A DNA stretch of 37,932 nt from Limnochordales bacterium. Its GTDB lineage: Bacteria; Bacillota; Limnochordia; Limnochordales; ZCTH02-B6. Under the pieces are notes generated by a model. The model was not told the DNA's origin, ran no database searches, and was given only the letters and a program-made list of their open reading frames with translations. Made by a program: the position numbers and the translations under genes. The stretch spans positions 1-37,932 of the forward strand of contig DATCKT010000300.1 of assembly GCA_036562195.1 (NCBI GenBank), given 5' to 3'. Below are positions 3,855-33,076 of this stretch, piece after piece (positions within the stretch are counted from its first letter, which is position 1; the number at the start of each line of letters is the position of its first letter).

Positions 3855-4211
3855 ATGAACCTCGTGGCCTTCATCGTCCTTGGGTTGGCGGCCGGCACGT
3901 TGAGCGGCCTGCTGGGCGTGGGCGGCGGCCTCATCATCGTACCGGTCCTGAACAAGGTGTTTCATGTCCCCATGAACGTGGCCGTGGGCACGTCGCTCCT
4001 CATCATCATTCCGACGGCACTGGTGGGTAGCCTCACCCACTACGCCAGGGGCAATTTGCAGCTGCAGCTGGCCCTGCCCATCATTCTGGGCACCGTGGTC
4101 GGCGGGTACGTGGGCGCGCGCCTGGTCGGGATCTTGCCCGAGCTCGCGTTGAAACGCGCGTTTGCGCTGCTGGCCCTCTACACAGCCTACCGGCTCTGGT
4201 TTGACCGCTAG
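3855..4211 (+). CDS. TauE/SafE (TSUP, DUF81) family membrane protein, half-size (118 aa)
   Basis: GLAAGTLSGLLGVGGGLIIVPVL..GTSLLIIIPTALVGSLTHY..ILGTVVGGYVGARL is the typical TSUP repeat unit with four predicted helices. Its stop overlaps the convergent gene's stop within the sequence CTAG (4208-4211). Confidence 0.75.
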   Translation: MNLVAFIVLGLAAGTLSGLLGVGGGLIIVPVLNKVFHVPMNVAVGTSLLIIIPTALVGSLTHYARGNLQLQLALPIILGTVVGGYVGARLVGILPELALKRAFALLALYTAYRLWFDR

Positions 4212-6776: not shown

Positions 6777-7904
6777 TTACCGCGGCGCCGCCGTCTCCCG
6801 GGCGCTGACCAGCTCCACGCTCTTGAACCGGTCGGCCACCCGGCGCATGACCTCGGGCATCGCGGTGTACTCCATCTCCTCCAAGGGCAGCCGGTGCGGC
6901 TCGAAGGGCCCCATCCGCCGCATCATCTCGGCCATCTCGAGAGCCGTCTGCCGCGCCTTGTCGAAGCCCGGATCGCCGAACATGTCGCGCGGGCCGACCA
7001 GCTGGCCGTTGTTGATCTGGAAGCCGTATGCCACCACCCGCGGCGGCCCGTCGAAACGGCTGGTGTTGGCCTGGTCGAAGCCGACCGGCATGAGCGGACC
7101 GCAGTGGGAGCCGCGCATCCAGCCCTCCACCAAATGCGGCTGGGCAAAGGCCTCCAGCGCCTCCCCCACCGCCGGCAGCCCGCTCTGGCAGCGCACGATG
7201 AGCACCGGGTCGTCCTTGCCCACGTACTTGCCGGCGATGAGGCTCAGCCGCTGGGTGGACGTGCTGGCCACCGGCTCGTGGTCACCCGGCCGGTACACGT
7301 TGCGGATGACGAAGCGGCTCGGCGAGCCGATGAACGACAGCAGGTCGTAGCTCTCGCTGGGCGTGTGGAAGCGGGCGACCTTGTTCTCCCGCAGGTCCAG
7401 AATCTCGAAGTCAAACCCCCCGTGCATCTTGGGGTCGATCACCAGCCCGGGGGTGATAAAGGGGTCCGCGAACATGCGGTACACCGGGAGGTTCCACGCG
7501 CCGGGGCTCGTCTTGTCGCCCAGGAAAATGATGACGGGTTCGCTGGGGCGCTCCTCAAACTGCATCTCGGCCACGCCGGGACCCAGGCCCTTGACGGTCC
7601 CCGCAAACGCGTCCTTGAGCAGGTCCTGCCCCGCGCCGTACAGCTTCAGGCTCTTGGCCACTTCGGTGGTGGCCCGGAACACCTCCCACGCGATCCGGTG
7701 CACCAGCTCGCTGTCGACGCCGTGGCGGTGGGTCATAATCAGGGCGATATCATCGCCCACCCGGCCGACGCAGTAGTCCTCGATCAAGCCCTTCTCCTTA
7801 CGCTGTTCCAGCTCGGCTTCCGCCGTCCGCATCATGTCCGGGTGGACCGCCGAGTGGCCTACAAAACCTCCGGTATCCGCCTTAATCACCGACAAGGTGA
7901 TCAT
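6777..7904 (-). CDS. fbp: Bifunctional fructose-1,6-bisphosphate aldolase/phosphatase (class V FBPase)
   Basis: MITLSVIKADTGGFVGHS..ALIMTHRHG..GAGQDLLKDAFAGTVKGLGPGVAEM..FLGDKTSPGAWNLPVY..DPFITPGLVIDP..GFDFEILD..VGKDDPVLIVRCQSGLPAVGE..MRGSHCGPLMP. The similarity runs full length to the archaeal/deep-branching bacterial enzyme. GGAGG SD. Confidence 0.9.
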   Translation of the reverse strand: MITLSVIKADTGGFVGHSAVHPDMMRTAEAELEQRKEKGLIEDYCVGRVGDDIALIMTHRHGVDSELVHRIAWEVFRATTEVAKSLKLYGAGQDLLKDAFAGTVKGLGPGVAEMQFEERPSEPVIIFLGDKTSPGAWNLPVYRMFADPFITPGLVIDPKMHGGFDFEILDLRENKVARFHTPSESYDLLSFIGSPSRFVIRNVYRPGDHEPVASTSTQRLSLIAGKYVGKDDPVLIVRCQSGLPAVGEALEAFAQPHLVEGWMRGSHCGPLMPVGFDQANTSRFDGPPRVVAYGFQINNGQLVGPRDMFGDPGFDKARQTALEMAEMMRRMGPFEPHRLPLEEMEYTAMPEVMRRVADRFKSVELVSARETAAPR

Positions 7905-8921
7905 GTCGTTTAATGGAAACCTCCTTCCGAGATGGTCCGCGGCGAACCAGTGCGCCGCAGGCCTGTGGAAAGGGCGCGCGCCCGCCTGGGGAAAGGCCGC
8001 TGTTAGCTACGGAAAAGACCGCTGCCCGGCGCCGGGCCGGCCGCCGGTGCGGTCGGTGGATGCACCGCTTGCTCCACAAGGGCGCGCGCGAGCAAAGCCC
8101 CCGCCCCAGGACCACGTGGGCGGGCGACCCCTTCTGGCCACCGGCGCCCCCTCTGTCCCCGCGATCGCTCGCGGGATTTAAAGGACGCCTGACGACCGTG
8201 GCCGGGCCGAGTGGCATCCGCCGATGATCCGATGAACCACTTCCTCGTCAACTTGCCCACCGTCACCAACTGGGCAAGTCCAGGCGCTTGCTCGTATTCA
8301 ATTGTGTGGTACGCCGTCCGGACGGCTCGCGCTCTCTCTCAGGCCTCGCCCCCTTCCTCCACCCTCACCCATCCCCACCTGCCGCACCGGCCGGAGCACC
8401 CGCCCCGCCGGCCTCGGCCCAGGCCACCGGTCCCTCGGAGGAACCGGCTAAGCCGAGGGCATTGGCACCTTATGCCGATACCGTCCGTCGGTGACACCGC
8501 GAAAGCCACGGGCACCCAATACAGGATTATTATACCACCCCCCCGGGGGAGTGTCCAGGATAACCTACTACCTAGCGCCCCAGCCGTAGGGCCGGGGTCA
8601 CCGAGGGGAAGGCAGGTGGCGACCATGCGCCGCTGGCTGCTTAGGGCCCTGCTCCTGATGGGCCTCAGCTGGCTTTACCGGGCCAGCCAGCGCTTTGTCC
8701 TCCGGCGCCTGCGCTGACCAGCGCCGCCGGCGACGCGAAACCATGCCCCGGCCGGCTGTACCCGGTCCGGGCGCTGTACACAACCACCTGCCGCGGTGGC
8801 CTACCCGCGGCCGCCGTCGGGCTTGGACAGCACCCGCGCGGCGCAGCCCCCCGGCCAGGGGGTCGCCCATCCCTTCCCGCACCGGGACTTCATGGTATAC
8901 TGGTGCGGGAGGCGACGCACC

Positions 8922-31342: not shown

Positions 31343-31723
31343 GTGGAACTGGTCGGGCGCAGCATCCTCGCCTACTTCACCCGCCACGATCAAGCCGAAC
31401 GGGCCAAAGCCGAGCTGCGTCGCGCCGGGTTTGAGACGGTACAGGTGGACCGCCTGGGCACGGACGAAGCGGGGGCGCACCGGCTGCACAACCCTCTGAC
31501 CGGGCGGATCGAAAGCCTCGCAGACCTCACGCTCGGCGTGGACACGGGCGGCGGCGACGCGGGTCCCTTGCTGGCGGCGGATCCAGACACATCAGGCCTG
31601 GCCCACGAGCTGGACGCGGATCCGGGCGCACCCGCACCGGCTTGGATCGTCACCGTGGTCACCACGGAGGATCAGGTCAATCGCGCCGTTCACATCCTCG
31701 AGGACGCCGGCGGCATCGTGTGA
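31343..31723 (+). CDS. Hypothetical protein (126 aa); possibly a YflT/general-stress-like domain
   Basis: GTG start after GGGAGGGAG. The N-terminus SILAYFTRHDQAERAKAELRRAGFE resembles the small stress-protein pattern. This is a weak assignment. Confidence 0.45.
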   Translation: MELVGRSILAYFTRHDQAERAKAELRRAGFETVQVDRLGTDEAGAHRLHNPLTGRIESLADLTLGVDTGGGDAGPLLAADPDTSGLAHELDADPGAPAPAWIVTVVTTEDQVNRAVHILEDAGGIV

Positions 31724-31739
31724 GGCCGGCCGGTGGCCG

Positions 31740-32285
31740 GCGCGGCGGCGCCCGGCCTGCGCACCAGTCCCTCCTCATACCCCGCCAGGGCCGCCATGCC
31801 TAAGAGGACGCAGAGTCCGGCCAGCGGGCCTGGCGCCACCAGCCCCCACGGACGGTCCACACTGAAGCTTCCGGTGTTCAGCAGCCACGTGGCCCCGAAG
31901 GACGATAAACCCATGGCGGTCTTGGTGAGCGATGGCGTACACCACGAGCCCCTGGGCGAAGGGACTTAAGGGTAGCGGCAGGCGCCCGATCACGCCCGAA
32001 AGGGGGAGCGCAACGGCCAGCGCCAGCAGGGCCATCTGCATGGTCCATCTCAGCCCGCGCCGGTTGGACACCCGGCCCGGGAGCGGAAAGCACGCCACCG
32101 CCACCGCGAAGGCGACAGCCAGGGTTATGGACGTGTCGGCCTCGGTGCCGCCCATCAGGACCGTGACGGCATACGGCACCCCGATGATCCCGGCGTTGAA
32201 ACCGATCCACGCCCGCACTTGGCACGCGGCGTAGTGGACGTACGGGCGGTTGCGCAGCGTCAGCAGGACCGATTCGATGACGCCC
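31740..32285 (-). pseudogene. Remnant of an MFS-type transporter: C-terminal half only, with an apparent 1-nt frameshift near 31925-31935
   Basis: My translation upstream of track ORF 31775..32218 reads ..GVIESVLLTLRNRPYVHYAACQVRAWIGFNAGIIGVPYAV.., typical of the MFS central loop/TM7. After ..GLVVYAIA the membrane-like sequence continues in another frame (LTKTAMGLSSFGATWLLNTGSF..LAGLCVLLGMAALAG, track ORF 31690..31914). There is no room for an N-terminal half before the terminator at 32408. Confidence 0.4.
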
Positions 32286-32407
32286 GGCGTGGGCGGATGC
32301 TCCCCAGCGTGACTCGGGTCCGCTCCACCACCCGTCCCCCTTGCTTCGCTCCGTCTCCCCGCGTTCCTGGCATCATTTGCCGGACCGCGGAGCAGTTTCC
32401 TGCCAGC

Positions 32408-32438
32408 AAAAAAGCCCGGCGCGGCTCGCGCGCCGGGC
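32408..32438 (-). terminator. Strong rho-independent terminator after the thioredoxin-like gene
   Basis: Minus strand: GCCCGGCGCG-CGAGC-CGCGCCGGGC-TTTTTT. The stem is a perfect 10-bp GC stem followed by U6. Confidence 0.85.
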
Positions 32439-32473
32439 TTGCACCGGCCCAGACTGAGCGATGCTTGGTTGAG

Positions 32474-32956
32474 TCAGGCGGCGCCCCGCATCCGAGCTTT
32501 CTGGTCCTCCAGGAGCCGGCGCCACGTGCTTTCCAATTGCTCGCCCACGATGCGCACCTGCTCCCGCCCGCCTTCAAAGCGAATCACGGTCGGGGTGGCC
32601 TGGATACCGTACTGTCGCCACGCCGATTGGTGCCGGTTGACGTCCACGACCAGAATGGGCACTTGCATCTCGTTGCTCAGCCTCTCCAGGACCGGAGAGG
32701 TACGACGGCAGAACGGTCAGGTCGGCGAGTGGAAGTACACGACCACGGAGTCGCCGGTCCGGATGGCGTCGGCCACGTCGGTGGGCGTCACAAAGCGGTA
32801 AAAGCCTTCGTCCTCCGGGGTGCGGTTGGTGAGGAAGAAGACAGCCGCCAGAAGCAACACAACCGCCACGGCGCCGCCCAACAGCCACCGGCGCTGGGCT
32901 GCCTGCGCTCGGGCCCTGCCGCTGCGAGGTTGGGCCTTTTTTCCTTGACTGGACAT
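32474..32956 (-). CDS. Membrane-anchored thioredoxin-fold protein with in-frame TGA (32719..32717) at the first position of the redox motif: candidate selenoprotein (U-P-F-C)
   Basis: Track ORFs 32717..33007 and 32474..32668 are in the same frame, separated only by the TGA and 16 sense codons. Joined reading: MSSQGKK..RRWLLGGAVAVVLLLAAVFFL (TM)..DSVVVYFHSPT-[TGA]-PFCRRTSPVLERLSNEMQVPILVVDVNRHQSAWRQYGIQATPTVIRFEGG.. This is a thioredoxin fold with the cis-Pro motif (TPT). ATG 32956 follows GAGGAGG. Confidence 0.6.
32681..32700 (-). promoter_or_regulatory. SECIS-like hairpin 16 nt downstream of the in-frame UGA
   Basis: Minus strand: UGA-N16-CCUCUCC-GGUCCU-GGAGAGG. The stem is a perfect 7 bp and the apical loop starts with GGUC. 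Confidence 0.5.
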
Positions 32957-33076
32957 GCCGGTCCTCCTCGCCTTGCCCAGAACAAGAACAGCGGGAACGG
33001 CCCGCATCGGCCCACGTGGGCCGATGCAACGGGCCCATCGGCGCCGGCCCCAGCGCCCGACGGGCCCAGTCGGCGT

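What the first reader, a model, noticed from the sequence alone, without database searches (positions are those of the whole stretch)
32474..32956. One thioredoxin-fold gene read as two ORFs: in-frame TGA exactly at the first Cys of CxxC, with a SECIS-like hairpin (candidate UxxC selenoprotein)
Seen in sequence: the ORFs at 32717..33007 and 32474..32668 share a frame. The only interruption is TGA at 32719..32717. Reading through gives ..VVVYFHSPT-[TGA]-PFC-RRTSPVLERLSNE..ILVVDVN..YGIQATPTVIRFEGG.. This lines up position for position with the thioredoxin pattern W-C-x-x-C .. cis-Pro (TPT) .. G. Sixteen nt after the TGA there is a perfect 7-bp hairpin, CCUCUCC-GGUCCU-GGAGAGG, whose loop begins GGUC. 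The gene has its own strong SD, an N-terminal TM anchor and a textbook terminator, so it looks maintained rather than decayed. Established knowledge: bacterial selenoproteins are mostly redox proteins in which Sec replaces a catalytic Cys, and the bacterial SECIS is a hairpin immediately 3' of the UGA with conserved G/U in the apical loop. Inference: this is an extracytoplasmic, membrane-anchored Sec-containing thiol-disulfide oxidoreductase that automated annotation would split or label a pseudogene.
Basis: partly seen in the sequence, partly recalled or inferred. Interest (0 to 1): 0.8.

Follow-up and report, generated by a model that had tools for sequence, protein, structure and literature searches.

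The report
Membrane-anchored selenocysteine thioredoxin-like gene, misannotated as two
A small membrane-anchored thioredoxin-like gene in an uncultured compost-type bacterium (Limnochordales) almost certainly uses an in-frame TGA to insert selenocysteine at its active site, and public databases wrongly list it as two short genes.

Summary
On the minus strand, one 160-codon gene (32956..32474) is interrupted only by TGA at 32719..32717. That TGA sits where thioredoxins have the first Cys of CxxC. A hairpin lies 16 nt downstream (32700..32681).

The window alone is not decisive, because the hairpin folds no better than shuffled sequence. The comparative evidence is.
- Ten distinct orthologues from more than 20 independent assemblies all keep the TGA. 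Most are Limnochordales-like.
- dN/dS is 0.06-0.36 downstream of the TGA, with dS up to about 1.4.
- The hairpin is paired in all 80 pair cells. Two stem positions show U-A to G-C compensatory changes, and one shows C-G to U-G.
- The stem uses codons rare in this genome (TCT 2% of Ser, AGG 3% of Arg).
- Ordinary Cys thioredoxins encoding the same SPVLERL peptide lack the hairpin.
- TGA is the ordinary stop of 12 of 15 genes checked in the window.
- The hairpin meets all four published bacterial SECIS criteria.

I could not test whether selA, selB, selC and selD are present, because the window is a metagenome contig.

No curated NCBIfam selenoprotein model reaches its cut-off. NCBI names the halves 'hypothetical protein' and 'thioredoxin family protein'. 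Verdict: a real, unannotated member of a known kind (UxxC thioredoxin-fold selenoproteins).

The parts
32474..32956 (-). Complete gene: 160 codons plus stop, read through the internal TGA. It encodes a membrane-anchored thioredoxin-fold protein with a U-P-F-C active site.
   Evidence: 483 nt. Pfam PF00085 at 48.3 bits. The orthologues are colinear over the full length.
32963..32969 (-). Shine-Dalgarno sequence GAGGAGG, 6 nt upstream of the ATG at 32956..32954.
   Evidence: Read directly. The same stretch (translated in frame as RRTG) precedes the conserved Met in the orthologues.
32831..32887 (-). Single hydrophobic transmembrane segment (W24-L42). A Lys/Arg-rich N-terminus (8 K/R in residues 1-23) precedes it and an acidic stretch follows. 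By the positive-inside rule, this places the thioredoxin domain outside the cytoplasmic membrane.
   Evidence: Sequence. All orthologues have the same architecture. The topology is inferred, not tested.
32717..32719 (-). In-frame TGA, codon 80: the proposed selenocysteine codon, at the position of the first Cys of CxxC.
   Evidence: TGA is present in all 10 distinct orthologues. It aligns to the first Cys of WCGPC in solved thioredoxins and to SPTCxxC in Cys homologues.
32708..32710 (-). TGC, Cys83: the resolving Cys of the UxxC motif.
   Evidence: Invariant column C83 in alignment A1.
32681..32700 (-). SECIS-like hairpin. The 5' arm CCUCUCCG is at 32700..32693, the loop GUCC at 32692..32689 and the 3' arm UGGAGAGG at 32688..32681. 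With the closing G-U pair opened, it is a 7-bp stem with a GGUCCU loop. It starts 16 nt after the UGA, and the loop starts 23-24 nt after it.
   Evidence: All 80 pair cells are paired across 10 orthologues, with 2 pairs showing compensatory U-A to G-C changes and 1 showing C-G to U-G. The rare codons TCT and AGG are retained. It meets the bSECIS consensus quoted from PMC13188914.
32591..32593 (-). Pro122 of the invariant T-P-T-V: the thioredoxin-fold cis-proline.
   Evidence: Invariant columns T121 P122 T123 V124. It aligns to the cis-Pro region of solved thioredoxins.
32402..32440 (-). Intrinsic terminator: a 12-bp stem with 10 G-C pairs, followed by a T run.

Best explanation
This is one functional gene for a small (160 aa) thiol-disulfide oxidoreductase of the thioredoxin fold. 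An N-terminal transmembrane segment holds it in the membrane, with the catalytic domain most likely outside the cytoplasm. Its active site is U-x-x-C: the nucleophilic Cys is replaced by selenocysteine, encoded by UGA 32719..32717.

Proposed decoding (inferred): the mRNA hairpin 16 nt downstream acts as a bacterial SECIS. SelB-GTP-Sec-tRNA(Sec) would bind its G/U-containing apical loop and deliver Sec to the ribosome at the UGA. Translation then continues through the rest of the thioredoxin domain to the TGA at 32476..32474.

Shown here:
- the single conserved frame;
- purifying selection on both sides of the UGA;
- conservation of the UGA;
- conservation and covariation of the hairpin;
- the fit to the SECIS consensus;
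- the homology to thioredoxins, with Cys at the UGA position.

Inferred, not shown: that the inserted residue is Sec, that SelB is the factor, the outward topology, and the physiological substrate. On the substrate, the protein is probably an extracytoplasmic disulfide reductase or isomerase, by analogy with membrane-anchored Cys homologues.
For: 1. One frame with a single TGA at the first Cys of CxxC. Pfam thioredoxin scores 48.3 bits. Alignments to solved thioredoxins put the position on the first Cys of WCGPC and TPT on the cis-Pro.
2. Ten distinct orthologues from more than 20 independent assemblies (ENA, JGI, NCBI MAGs, Logan) all carry TGA at the same codon. The xx dipeptide varies (PF, IY, VH, VF, GT), while U and C do not.
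3. dN/dS is 0.06-0.36 downstream of the TGA and 0.20-0.53 upstream. dS reaches about 1.4 downstream and 1.8 upstream, so the 3' half is translated in this frame.
4. The hairpin is paired in 80 of 80 cells, and no shuffle out of 500 reaches the observed pairing or covariation score. Sliding the partners by 1-3 columns drops pairing to 39-58%.
5. The compensatory changes are TCT/AGG to GCT/CGG (L010, L029, L032, L034) and TCT/GAG to TCG/GCG (L023). Two of them cost an amino-acid change (Ser to Ala, Glu to Ala).
6. TCT is 2% of Ser codons and AGG is 3% of Arg codons in window genes, yet both are kept in the stem.
7. Cys thioredoxins encoding the same SPVLERL peptide use other codons and do not form the hairpin.
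8. TGA is the ordinary stop of 12 of 15 window genes, including this gene and rpsI, so there is no genome-wide reassignment.
9. All four bSECIS criteria are met: loop of 3-9 nt, stem of 4-16 bp, G in the first two loop positions, 16-37 nt from UGA to the loop, and MFE of -7.5 kcal/mol or lower.
10. The neighbouring MFS gene shows what decay looks like here (deletion plus frameshift), whereas this gene is intact.
Against: - No selA, selB, selD or tRNA-Sec gene was seen, but only about 42 kb of this organism is available. The trait is therefore untested, not absent.
- An ARAGORN 'tRNA-SeC' call in a relative is a false positive inside truA.
- No Rfam family matched the hairpin at E <= 10.
- The hairpin has no bulged U like U17 of the E. 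coli fdhF SECIS, and it starts 16 nt rather than 11 nt after the UGA (PMC8659212).
- In the window alone the fold is not better than shuffles.
- There is no direct evidence for selenium in the protein.
Confidence: 0.88

Rival explanations
1. The UGA and hairpin direct insertion of something other than Sec. One route is Cys delivered by a SelB-type factor with a non-canonical tRNA(Cys) that has a UCA anticodon. Another is hairpin-stimulated near-cognate read-through (Trp or Cys) in a lineage without selenium metabolism.
For: All the comparative evidence shows only that the UGA is decoded and that the hairpin matters. It does not show which residue is inserted. The Sec machinery was not found in the available DNA. 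SelB-dependent recoding of UGA as Cys with a non-canonical tRNA(Cys) is a published phenomenon (Vargas-Rodriguez et al. 2018, listed in the references of PMC8762117). The base after the stop is C in seven orthologues (UGA-C), which from my own knowledge is a weak termination context.
Against: A Cys codon would give Cys at no cost, so keeping UGA plus a costly hairpin over dS of about 1 is hard to explain unless the product differs from Cys. The position is the nucleophilic redox Cys, the classic Sec site (PMC13188914). The hairpin matches the SelB-type SECIS consensus. In L023, L029, L032 and L034 the next base is A or G, so the weak context is not conserved.
Confidence: 0.05
2. The TGA is a real stop. 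The locus would then make a 79-residue membrane peptide and, separately, a C-terminal thioredoxin fragment of about 64-80 residues. The hairpin would serve reinitiation, pausing or mRNA stability.
For: Gene callers and NCBI annotate it this way. In some relatives a GTG or ATC-type codon directly follows the TGA, and gene callers use it as a start (L023, L029, L032).
Against: No start codon or SD for the second half is conserved. The called starts differ among orthologues: Met97 in the window, Val85 in L004, and the codon right after the TGA in others. The frame is always kept, although two separate genes would not need this. A split would cut the thioredoxin fold inside beta1-alpha1 and remove the nucleophilic residue, leaving xxC alone. 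All Cys homologues are single chains.
Confidence: 0.03
3. The gene is a nonsense-mutated pseudogene, or the TGA is an assembly or sequencing error.
For: The only support is the bare presence of a stop codon in a metagenome contig.
Against: The same TGA appears in more than 20 independent assemblies and 10 diverged sequences. dN/dS is far below 1 on both sides. There are no frameshifts or further stops. The adjacent MFS gene shows real decay for comparison.
Confidence: 0.01

Closest known systems
Selenoprotein thioredoxin (Trx, PF00085, UxxC; Treponema denticola type), listed as experimentally verified in PMC13188914
   Same: It belongs to the same Pfam family (PF00085). Sec replaces the N-terminal Cys of CxxC, and a bacterial SECIS lies in the coding region just 3' of the UGA.
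   Different: The window protein has an N-terminal transmembrane anchor, so its domain is probably outside the cytoplasm. Its motif is SPT-U-x-x-C with a variable xx, rather than the thioredoxin W-C-G-P-C type. It fails the thioredoxin equivalog model TIGR01068 (51.5 bits against 96.8). It also occurs in a different lineage (Limnochordales-like Bacillota).
Predicted extracytoplasmic UxxC selenoproteins of the thioredoxin fold: 'thiol:disulfide interchange protein' (PF13098), 'thiol-disulfide isomerase-like' (cd02966), DsbA-like and DsbG-like (table in PMC13188914)
   Same: They share the thioredoxin fold, the UxxC redox centre and an exported or membrane-tethered location.
   Different: The window protein scores best on PF00085. 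DsbE/TlpA-type models score far below their cut-offs (dsbE 17.4 against 123). It is much shorter than DsbA or DsbG and lacks their inserted helical domain.
Membrane-anchored Cys homologues of Bacillales-type organisms (P0130, P0134, P0140, P0142, P0185; motif YFYSPTCxHCKxTTP). They show sub-threshold similarity to PedC/BrcD bacteriocin-maturation disulfide isomerases (TIGR01295). From memory only, they resemble B. subtilis BdbA.
   Same: The architecture and size match (N-terminal TM helix plus one thioredoxin domain, 135-165 aa). They share the SPT-[C/U]-x-x-C context and the G-TPT-(I/V) cis-Pro motif.
   Different: They carry Cys, not Sec. They are only about 25-40% identical over the C-terminal 80 residues. 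The window protein scores 38.8 bits on TIGR01295 against a cut-off of 120, so membership is not established.
E. coli fdhF SECIS (the reference bacterial SECIS)
   Same: It is a hairpin immediately 3' of the UGA within the coding sequence, with conserved G and U in the apical loop (PMC8659212). Here the loop reads G-G-U-C in 9 of 10 orthologues.
   Different: In fdhF the minimal stem-loop starts 11 nt after the UGA and needs a bulged U17. Here the stem starts 16 nt after the UGA and is a perfect 7-8 bp helix without a bulge.

Membership tests
Bacterial selenoprotein gene (SelB/SECIS-dependent UGA recoding) | The in-frame UGA lies at a position occupied by a redox-active Cys in homologues. | tested here: met
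   The UGA aligns to the first Cys of CxxC in solved thioredoxins and in the membrane-anchored Cys homologues P0130, P0134 and P0142.
Bacterial selenoprotein gene (SelB/SECIS-dependent UGA recoding) | The UGA is conserved in orthologues, and coding constraint continues 3' of it. | tested here: met
   All 10 distinct orthologues keep TGA. dN/dS downstream is 0.06-0.36.
Bacterial selenoprotein gene (SelB/SECIS-dependent UGA recoding) | A bSECIS is present: loop of 3-9 nt, upper stem of 4-16 bp, G in the first two loop positions, 16-37 nt from UGA to the loop, and MFE of -7.5 kcal/mol or lower (PMC13188914). | tested here: met
   The loop is GGUCCU (or GUCC), the stem is 7-8 bp, the loop starts 23-24 nt after the UGA, and the hairpin is -13 kcal/mol.
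Bacterial selenoprotein gene (SelB/SECIS-dependent UGA recoding) | The SECIS structure is maintained by selection (covariation). | tested here: met
   All 80 cells are paired. Two pairs carry compensatory changes (5 cells) and one carries a wobble change. No shuffle out of 500 reaches the observed score. Rare codons are retained in the stem.
Bacterial selenoprotein gene (SelB/SECIS-dependent UGA recoding) | selA, selB, selD and tRNA-Sec (selC) are present in the same genome. | not testable with these tools
   The window is a 42-kb metagenome contig. None of these genes is in the window or the fetched loci.
Bacterial selenoprotein gene (SelB/SECIS-dependent UGA recoding) | Selenium is actually incorporated at the UGA position. 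| not testable with these tools
   This needs 75Se labelling or mass spectrometry.
Thioredoxin superfamily (Pfam PF00085) | The score is above the Pfam gathering threshold, with a C/UxxC motif before helix alpha1 and a cis-Pro loop. | tested here: met
   48.3 bits against a threshold of 23.5. U80-x-x-C83 and T121-P122-T123 are invariant and align to WCGPC and the cis-Pro of solved thioredoxins.
Canonical thioredoxin TrxA (NCBIfam TIGR01068 equivalog) | The score is above the curated cut-off, and the WCGPC motif is present. | tested here: not met
   51.5 bits against a cut-off of 96.8. The motif is SPT-U-PF-C, and the protein is membrane-anchored.
Curated NCBIfam selenoprotein thioredoxin-fold families (TIGR02187 PDO_seleno_TRX, NF053656 TUGYCR redoxin, NF045694 TsoB and others) | The score is above the family's curated cut-off. 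| tested here: not met
   The best scores are 19.6 against 185 and 17.0 against 100. No selenoprotein-specific model claims this protein.
PedC/BrcD bacteriocin-maturation disulfide isomerases (TIGR01295) | The score is above the curated cut-off. | tested here: not met
   38.8 bits against a cut-off of 120, covering only residues 59-111.
TlpA/ResA/StoA/DsbE-type extracytoplasmic reductases | The protein matches the family models, and a CcdA/DsbD partner lies nearby. | tested here: not met
   dsbE scores 17.4 against 123, and there is no ResA or StoA hit for the window protein. No DsbD/CcdA-type gene was found among the window ORFs scanned.

The most novel reading that the evidence does not exclude
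The conserved UGA plus SECIS-type hairpin may operate without classical selenocysteine. One possibility is SelB-like delivery of Cys from a non-canonical UCA-anticodon tRNA (the route reported by Vargas-Rodriguez et al. 2018). Another is a hairpin-programmed read-through in a lineage that lacks selABCD. Either would make this a family-wide, conserved, non-Sec recoding site in a redox active site.
Probability: 0.05. Interest if true: 0.75.

Novelty: new member of a known kind. Interest (0 to 1): 0.4.

Why it matters
**Annotation.** Every close family member in a 5.8-billion-protein collection is stored as a 64-80-residue fragment, and NCBI names the halves 'hypothetical protein' and 'thioredoxin family protein'. 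No curated NCBIfam selenoprotein model covers the family. It therefore needs its own model (motif Y-F-H-S-P-T-U-x-x-C).

**Selenium use in Limnochordales.** The finding implies that this Limnochordales-like clade of thermophilic compost and digester bacteria uses selenium. The literature searches found no paper linking the group to selenoproteins.

**Evolution of the SECIS.** This is a clean natural example of a SECIS built inside a conserved protein helix. The peptide (S/A)PVLER occurs in ordinary Cys thioredoxins too. Only codon choice creates the hairpin and its GGUC loop. That suggests a short mutational path from Cys to Sec in this fold. The RNA constraint is strong enough to force amino-acid changes (Ser to Ala, Glu to Ala).

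**Limits.** This is not a new mechanism. UxxC thioredoxin-fold selenoproteins are the commonest class of bacterial selenoproteins.

Tried and rejected
- **First homologue search.** The search for homologous proteins with the Cys-substituted joined protein gave no hit, because of the word-index limit.
- **First genome scan.** The first genome-contig scan with the single protein gave nothing.
- **Representative search and structure prediction.** The joined protein could not be submitted to the search of protein representatives. I used only the C-terminal 80 residues for that search.
- **Rfam.** At E <= 10 on the 141-nt region there was no SECIS-type or other meaningful hit.
- **tRNA-Sec.** ARAGORN called a tRNA-SeC in L002 and L012. 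I rejected it because it lies inside the truA coding sequence, is absent from the window's orthologous region, and has no Rfam tRNA-Sec support.
- **sel genes and redox partners.** Pfam scans of about 27 further window ORFs found no sel gene and no DsbD/CcdA partner.
- **Other selenoprotein candidates.** Two scans for other in-frame TGA genes in the window and all loci gave only chance-level sites apart from this gene family.
- **Literature.** Searches for Limnochordia with selenocysteine or selenoprotein found nothing relevant.
- **Code reassignment.** I rejected genome-wide TGA reassignment, because TGA ends 12 of 15 genes checked.
- **Split gene.** I rejected a split gene with its own second start, because no start codon is conserved.
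Full report
**1. What is in the window**

On the minus strand a single reading frame runs from ATG 32956 to TGA 32476..32474. That is 483 nt, or 160 codons plus the stop. One stop interrupts it, TGA at 32719..32717. The translation reads ..DSVVVYFHSPT-*-PFCRRTSPVLERLSNE..ATPTVIRFEGG...

A GAGGAGG Shine-Dalgarno sequence sits 6 nt before the ATG. A 12-bp G+C-rich terminator with a T run follows the gene at 32440..32402.

The N-terminus has 8 Lys/Arg in 23 residues. An uninterrupted hydrophobic stretch follows (W24-L42), and then an acidic segment. By the positive-inside rule this is a signal-anchor, which would place the rest of the protein outside the cytoplasmic membrane. That topology is inferred.

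With Cys put in place of the stop, the protein matches Pfam Thioredoxin PF00085 at 48.3 bits, against a cut-off of 23.5. Alignments to solved thioredoxins place the stop on the first Cys of WCGPC and the TPT on the cis-Pro loop.

The hairpin CCUCUCC(G)-GUCC-(U)GGAGAGG lies at 32700..32681 and begins 16 nt after the UGA. Its centroid energy is -13 kcal/mol.

- The ORF-list start at 33007 is probably not used. Only the Met at 32956 and its SD are conserved in relatives.
- On this sequence alone the hairpin is not statistically remarkable. The z-score against shuffles is +1.06, and a loose SECIS-like scan finds eight TGA sites in this 68% GC window.

**2. Where the window comes from**

The window is part of a 42-kb ENA metagenome contig, ERZ4232226 NODE_1181. 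The gene caller there splits the gene into products of 79 and 64 residues.

The gene lies at the end of the rpoA-rplQ-ecfA-ecfA-ecfT-truA-rplM-rpsI cluster and next to spoVR, a DUF444 (PF04285) gene and prkA. The closest S9 proteins are named Limnochordales bacterium, Firmicutes bacterium ZCTH02-B6 and Limnochordia. The organism is therefore a high-GC, spore-former-like member of the Limnochordales group.

**3. Orthologues**

I followed S9 and later the protein fragments to their contigs, and ran two profile scans. Together these gave ten distinct versions of the gene from more than 20 independent assemblies:

| Version | Loci | Source or S9 identity to the window |
|---|---|---|
| 1 | window | - |
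| 2 | L002/L012 | S9 98% identical |
| 3 | L003/L009 | ZCTH02-B6 |
| 4 | L004-L008/L013 | includes NCBI GCA_047459605.1 and SMAG_U10406 |
| 5 | L010 | SMAG_U7113 |
| 6 | L011/L014/L015 | ZC4RG06 |
| 7 | L023/L024 | GCA_017656145.1, S9 76% |
| 8 | L029-L031 | - |
| 9 | L032/L033 | - |
| 10 | L034-L036 | different gene neighbourhood |

Every version has TGA at the same codon. The context is (Y/F)-(F/Y)-(H/R)-S-P-T-TGA-x-x-TG(C/T), with the xx pair being PF, IY, VH, VF or GT. Some more distant relatives (L025-L028) lack the gene at this position altogether.

A profile search of 5.8 billion proteins returned 18 close hits. All are fragments of 64-80 residues, either N-terminal halves ending in ..HSPT or C-terminal halves. 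NCBI names them 'hypothetical protein' and 'thioredoxin family protein'. The nearest full-length Cys proteins in that search are only 30-33% identical.

**4. Is the 3' half translated?**

Nei-Gojobori estimates over all 15 pairs give dN/dS of 0.06-0.36 downstream of the TGA and 0.20-0.53 upstream. dS reaches about 1.4 downstream and 1.8 upstream. The region after the TGA is therefore under at least as much protein-level constraint as the region before it, in the same frame, with no extra stops or frameshifts.

No start codon or SD for a separate second gene is conserved. The called starts differ from genome to genome.

The next gene downstream in relatives is an MFS transporter. In the window it is a true remnant, with residues 1-209 deleted and the rest in two frames. 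That shows what decay looks like in this genome.

TGA is the normal stop of 12 of 15 verified genes in the window, including rpsI and this gene itself. A reassigned genetic code is therefore excluded.

**5. Is the hairpin selected?**

Across the ten sequences all eight pairs are formed in every sequence (80 of 80 cells). The changes seen in the stem are:
- **Third stem pair:** U-A in six sequences and G-C in four (TCT..AGG to GCT..CGG). It changed within the close L010/L011 pair (dS 0.19) and again in the distant clade.
- **Fifth stem pair:** U-A to G-C in L023 (TCT..GAG to TCG..GCG).
- **Second stem pair:** C-G to U-G in L003.

The only other changes are in the loop.

No shuffle out of 500 reaches the observed pairing or covariation score. 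Sliding the partners by 1-3 columns gives 39-58% pairing and no compensatory change.

Two of the compensatory events needed an amino-acid replacement (Ser to Ala, Glu to Ala), so the RNA constraint overrides the protein.

The stem uses TCT (2% of Ser codons in window genes) and AGG (3% of Arg codons). Ordinary Cys thioredoxins that encode the same SPVLERL peptide (L016-L022) use other codons and do not form the hairpin.

**6. Fit to the known mechanism**

A 2026 review gives the bacterial SECIS consensus as:
- an apical loop of 3-9 nt;
- an upper stem of 4-16 bp;
- G in one of the first two loop positions, usually followed by G or U;
- 16-37 nt between the UGA and the loop;
- MFE of -7.5 kcal/mol or lower (PMC13188914).

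Here the loop is GGUCCU (or GUCC with a closing G-U pair), the stem is 7-8 bp, the spacing is 23-24 nt and the energy is -13 kcal/mol. All criteria are met.

The E. coli fdhF element differs in two ways. It has a bulged U17, and it starts 11 nt after the UGA (PMC8659212). Neither feature is part of the general consensus. Rfam gave no match to this hairpin.

**7. What could not be tested**

The Sec machinery could not be examined.
- Neither the window nor any fetched locus contains selA, selB, selD or a credible tRNA-Sec.
- An ARAGORN tRNA-SeC call in L002 and L012 lies inside truA and has no Rfam support.
- The literature searches found nothing on selenoproteins in Limnochordia.

The identity of the inserted residue therefore rests on inference. 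A UGA at the nucleophilic Cys of a redox motif is kept together with a costly SECIS-type hairpin over long divergence. That is the established signature of Sec. A plain Cys codon would otherwise be cheaper.

**8. Function**

The protein is a thioredoxin-fold thiol-disulfide oxidoreductase with a U-x-x-C centre. It is probably tethered to the outer face of the cytoplasmic membrane.

Its nearest Cys relatives were found with the C-terminal 80 residues. They are 135-165-residue membrane-anchored proteins with YFYSPTCxHCKxTTP and GTPT(I/V) motifs. They and the window protein give sub-threshold hits to PedC/BrcD disulfide isomerases (38.8 bits against 120) and none to the curated ResA, StoA or DsbE models.

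I therefore propose an extracytoplasmic disulfide reductase or isomerase role. The substrate is unknown, and no DsbD/CcdA partner is nearby.

**9. Comparison with the known, and novelty**

UxxC selenoproteins of the thioredoxin fold are the commonest class of bacterial selenoproteins. They include thioredoxin itself, glutaredoxin, thiol:disulfide interchange proteins, and DsbA- and DsbG-like proteins. So this is a new member of a known kind, not a new mechanism.

What is new is the specific family (membrane anchor plus the HSPT-U-x-x-C motif), its lineage, and the fact that no curated model recognises it, so it is systematically split in databases.

**10. Verdict**

| Reading | Confidence |
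|---|---|
| Real selenoprotein gene | about 0.88 |
| Non-Sec recoding at the same site | about 0.05 |
| Genuine termination or split gene | about 0.03 |
| Pseudogene or error | about 0.01 |

Interest is moderate (0.4). The finding is correct, well supported and useful for annotation and for the distribution of selenium use, but a specialist would not find it surprising.

Noticed in passing
window 8133..8299 (-) and 6777..7904 (-): A full-length glmS ribozyme (RF00234, 113 bits, E 5e-26) lies about 230 nt upstream of a PF01950 fructose-1,6-bisphosphatase (FBP aldolase/phosphatase type) gene on the same strand, not upstream of glmS. No glmS gene is adjacent. One literature search listed five papers that hold both terms; judged from their titles and abstracts alone, none is about this pairing.
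   Followed up: partly
window 31693..32317 (-): The MFS transporter gene that follows the thioredoxin-like gene in relatives (L002 4398-5774, 458 aa) is a remnant here. Residues 1-209 are deleted, and the rest is split between two frames at 69-72% identity.
   Followed up: yes
L002 1887..1981 (+) and L012 1118..1212 (+): ARAGORN reports a tRNA-SeC (anticodon TCA) here. It lies inside the truA coding sequence, has no Rfam tRNA-Sec match, and is not called in the window's orthologous region. It is a false positive that could mislead a search for the Sec machinery.
   Followed up: yes
window 3855..4211 (+): A 118-residue ORF matches only the first half of the TauE/SafE sulfite-exporter profile (positions 2-109 of 237) and ends with TAG. 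No continuation exists in any frame. It is either a half-size family member or a truncated gene.
   Followed up: partly
L025-L028 (rpsI downstream region) versus L029-L031: The selenoprotein gene shows presence/absence variation among related Limnochordales-like genomes. Some have only about 130-230 bp between rpsI and the next gene (an Octopine_DH-type gene on the other strand). L029-L031 carry the gene in that same slot.
   Followed up: no
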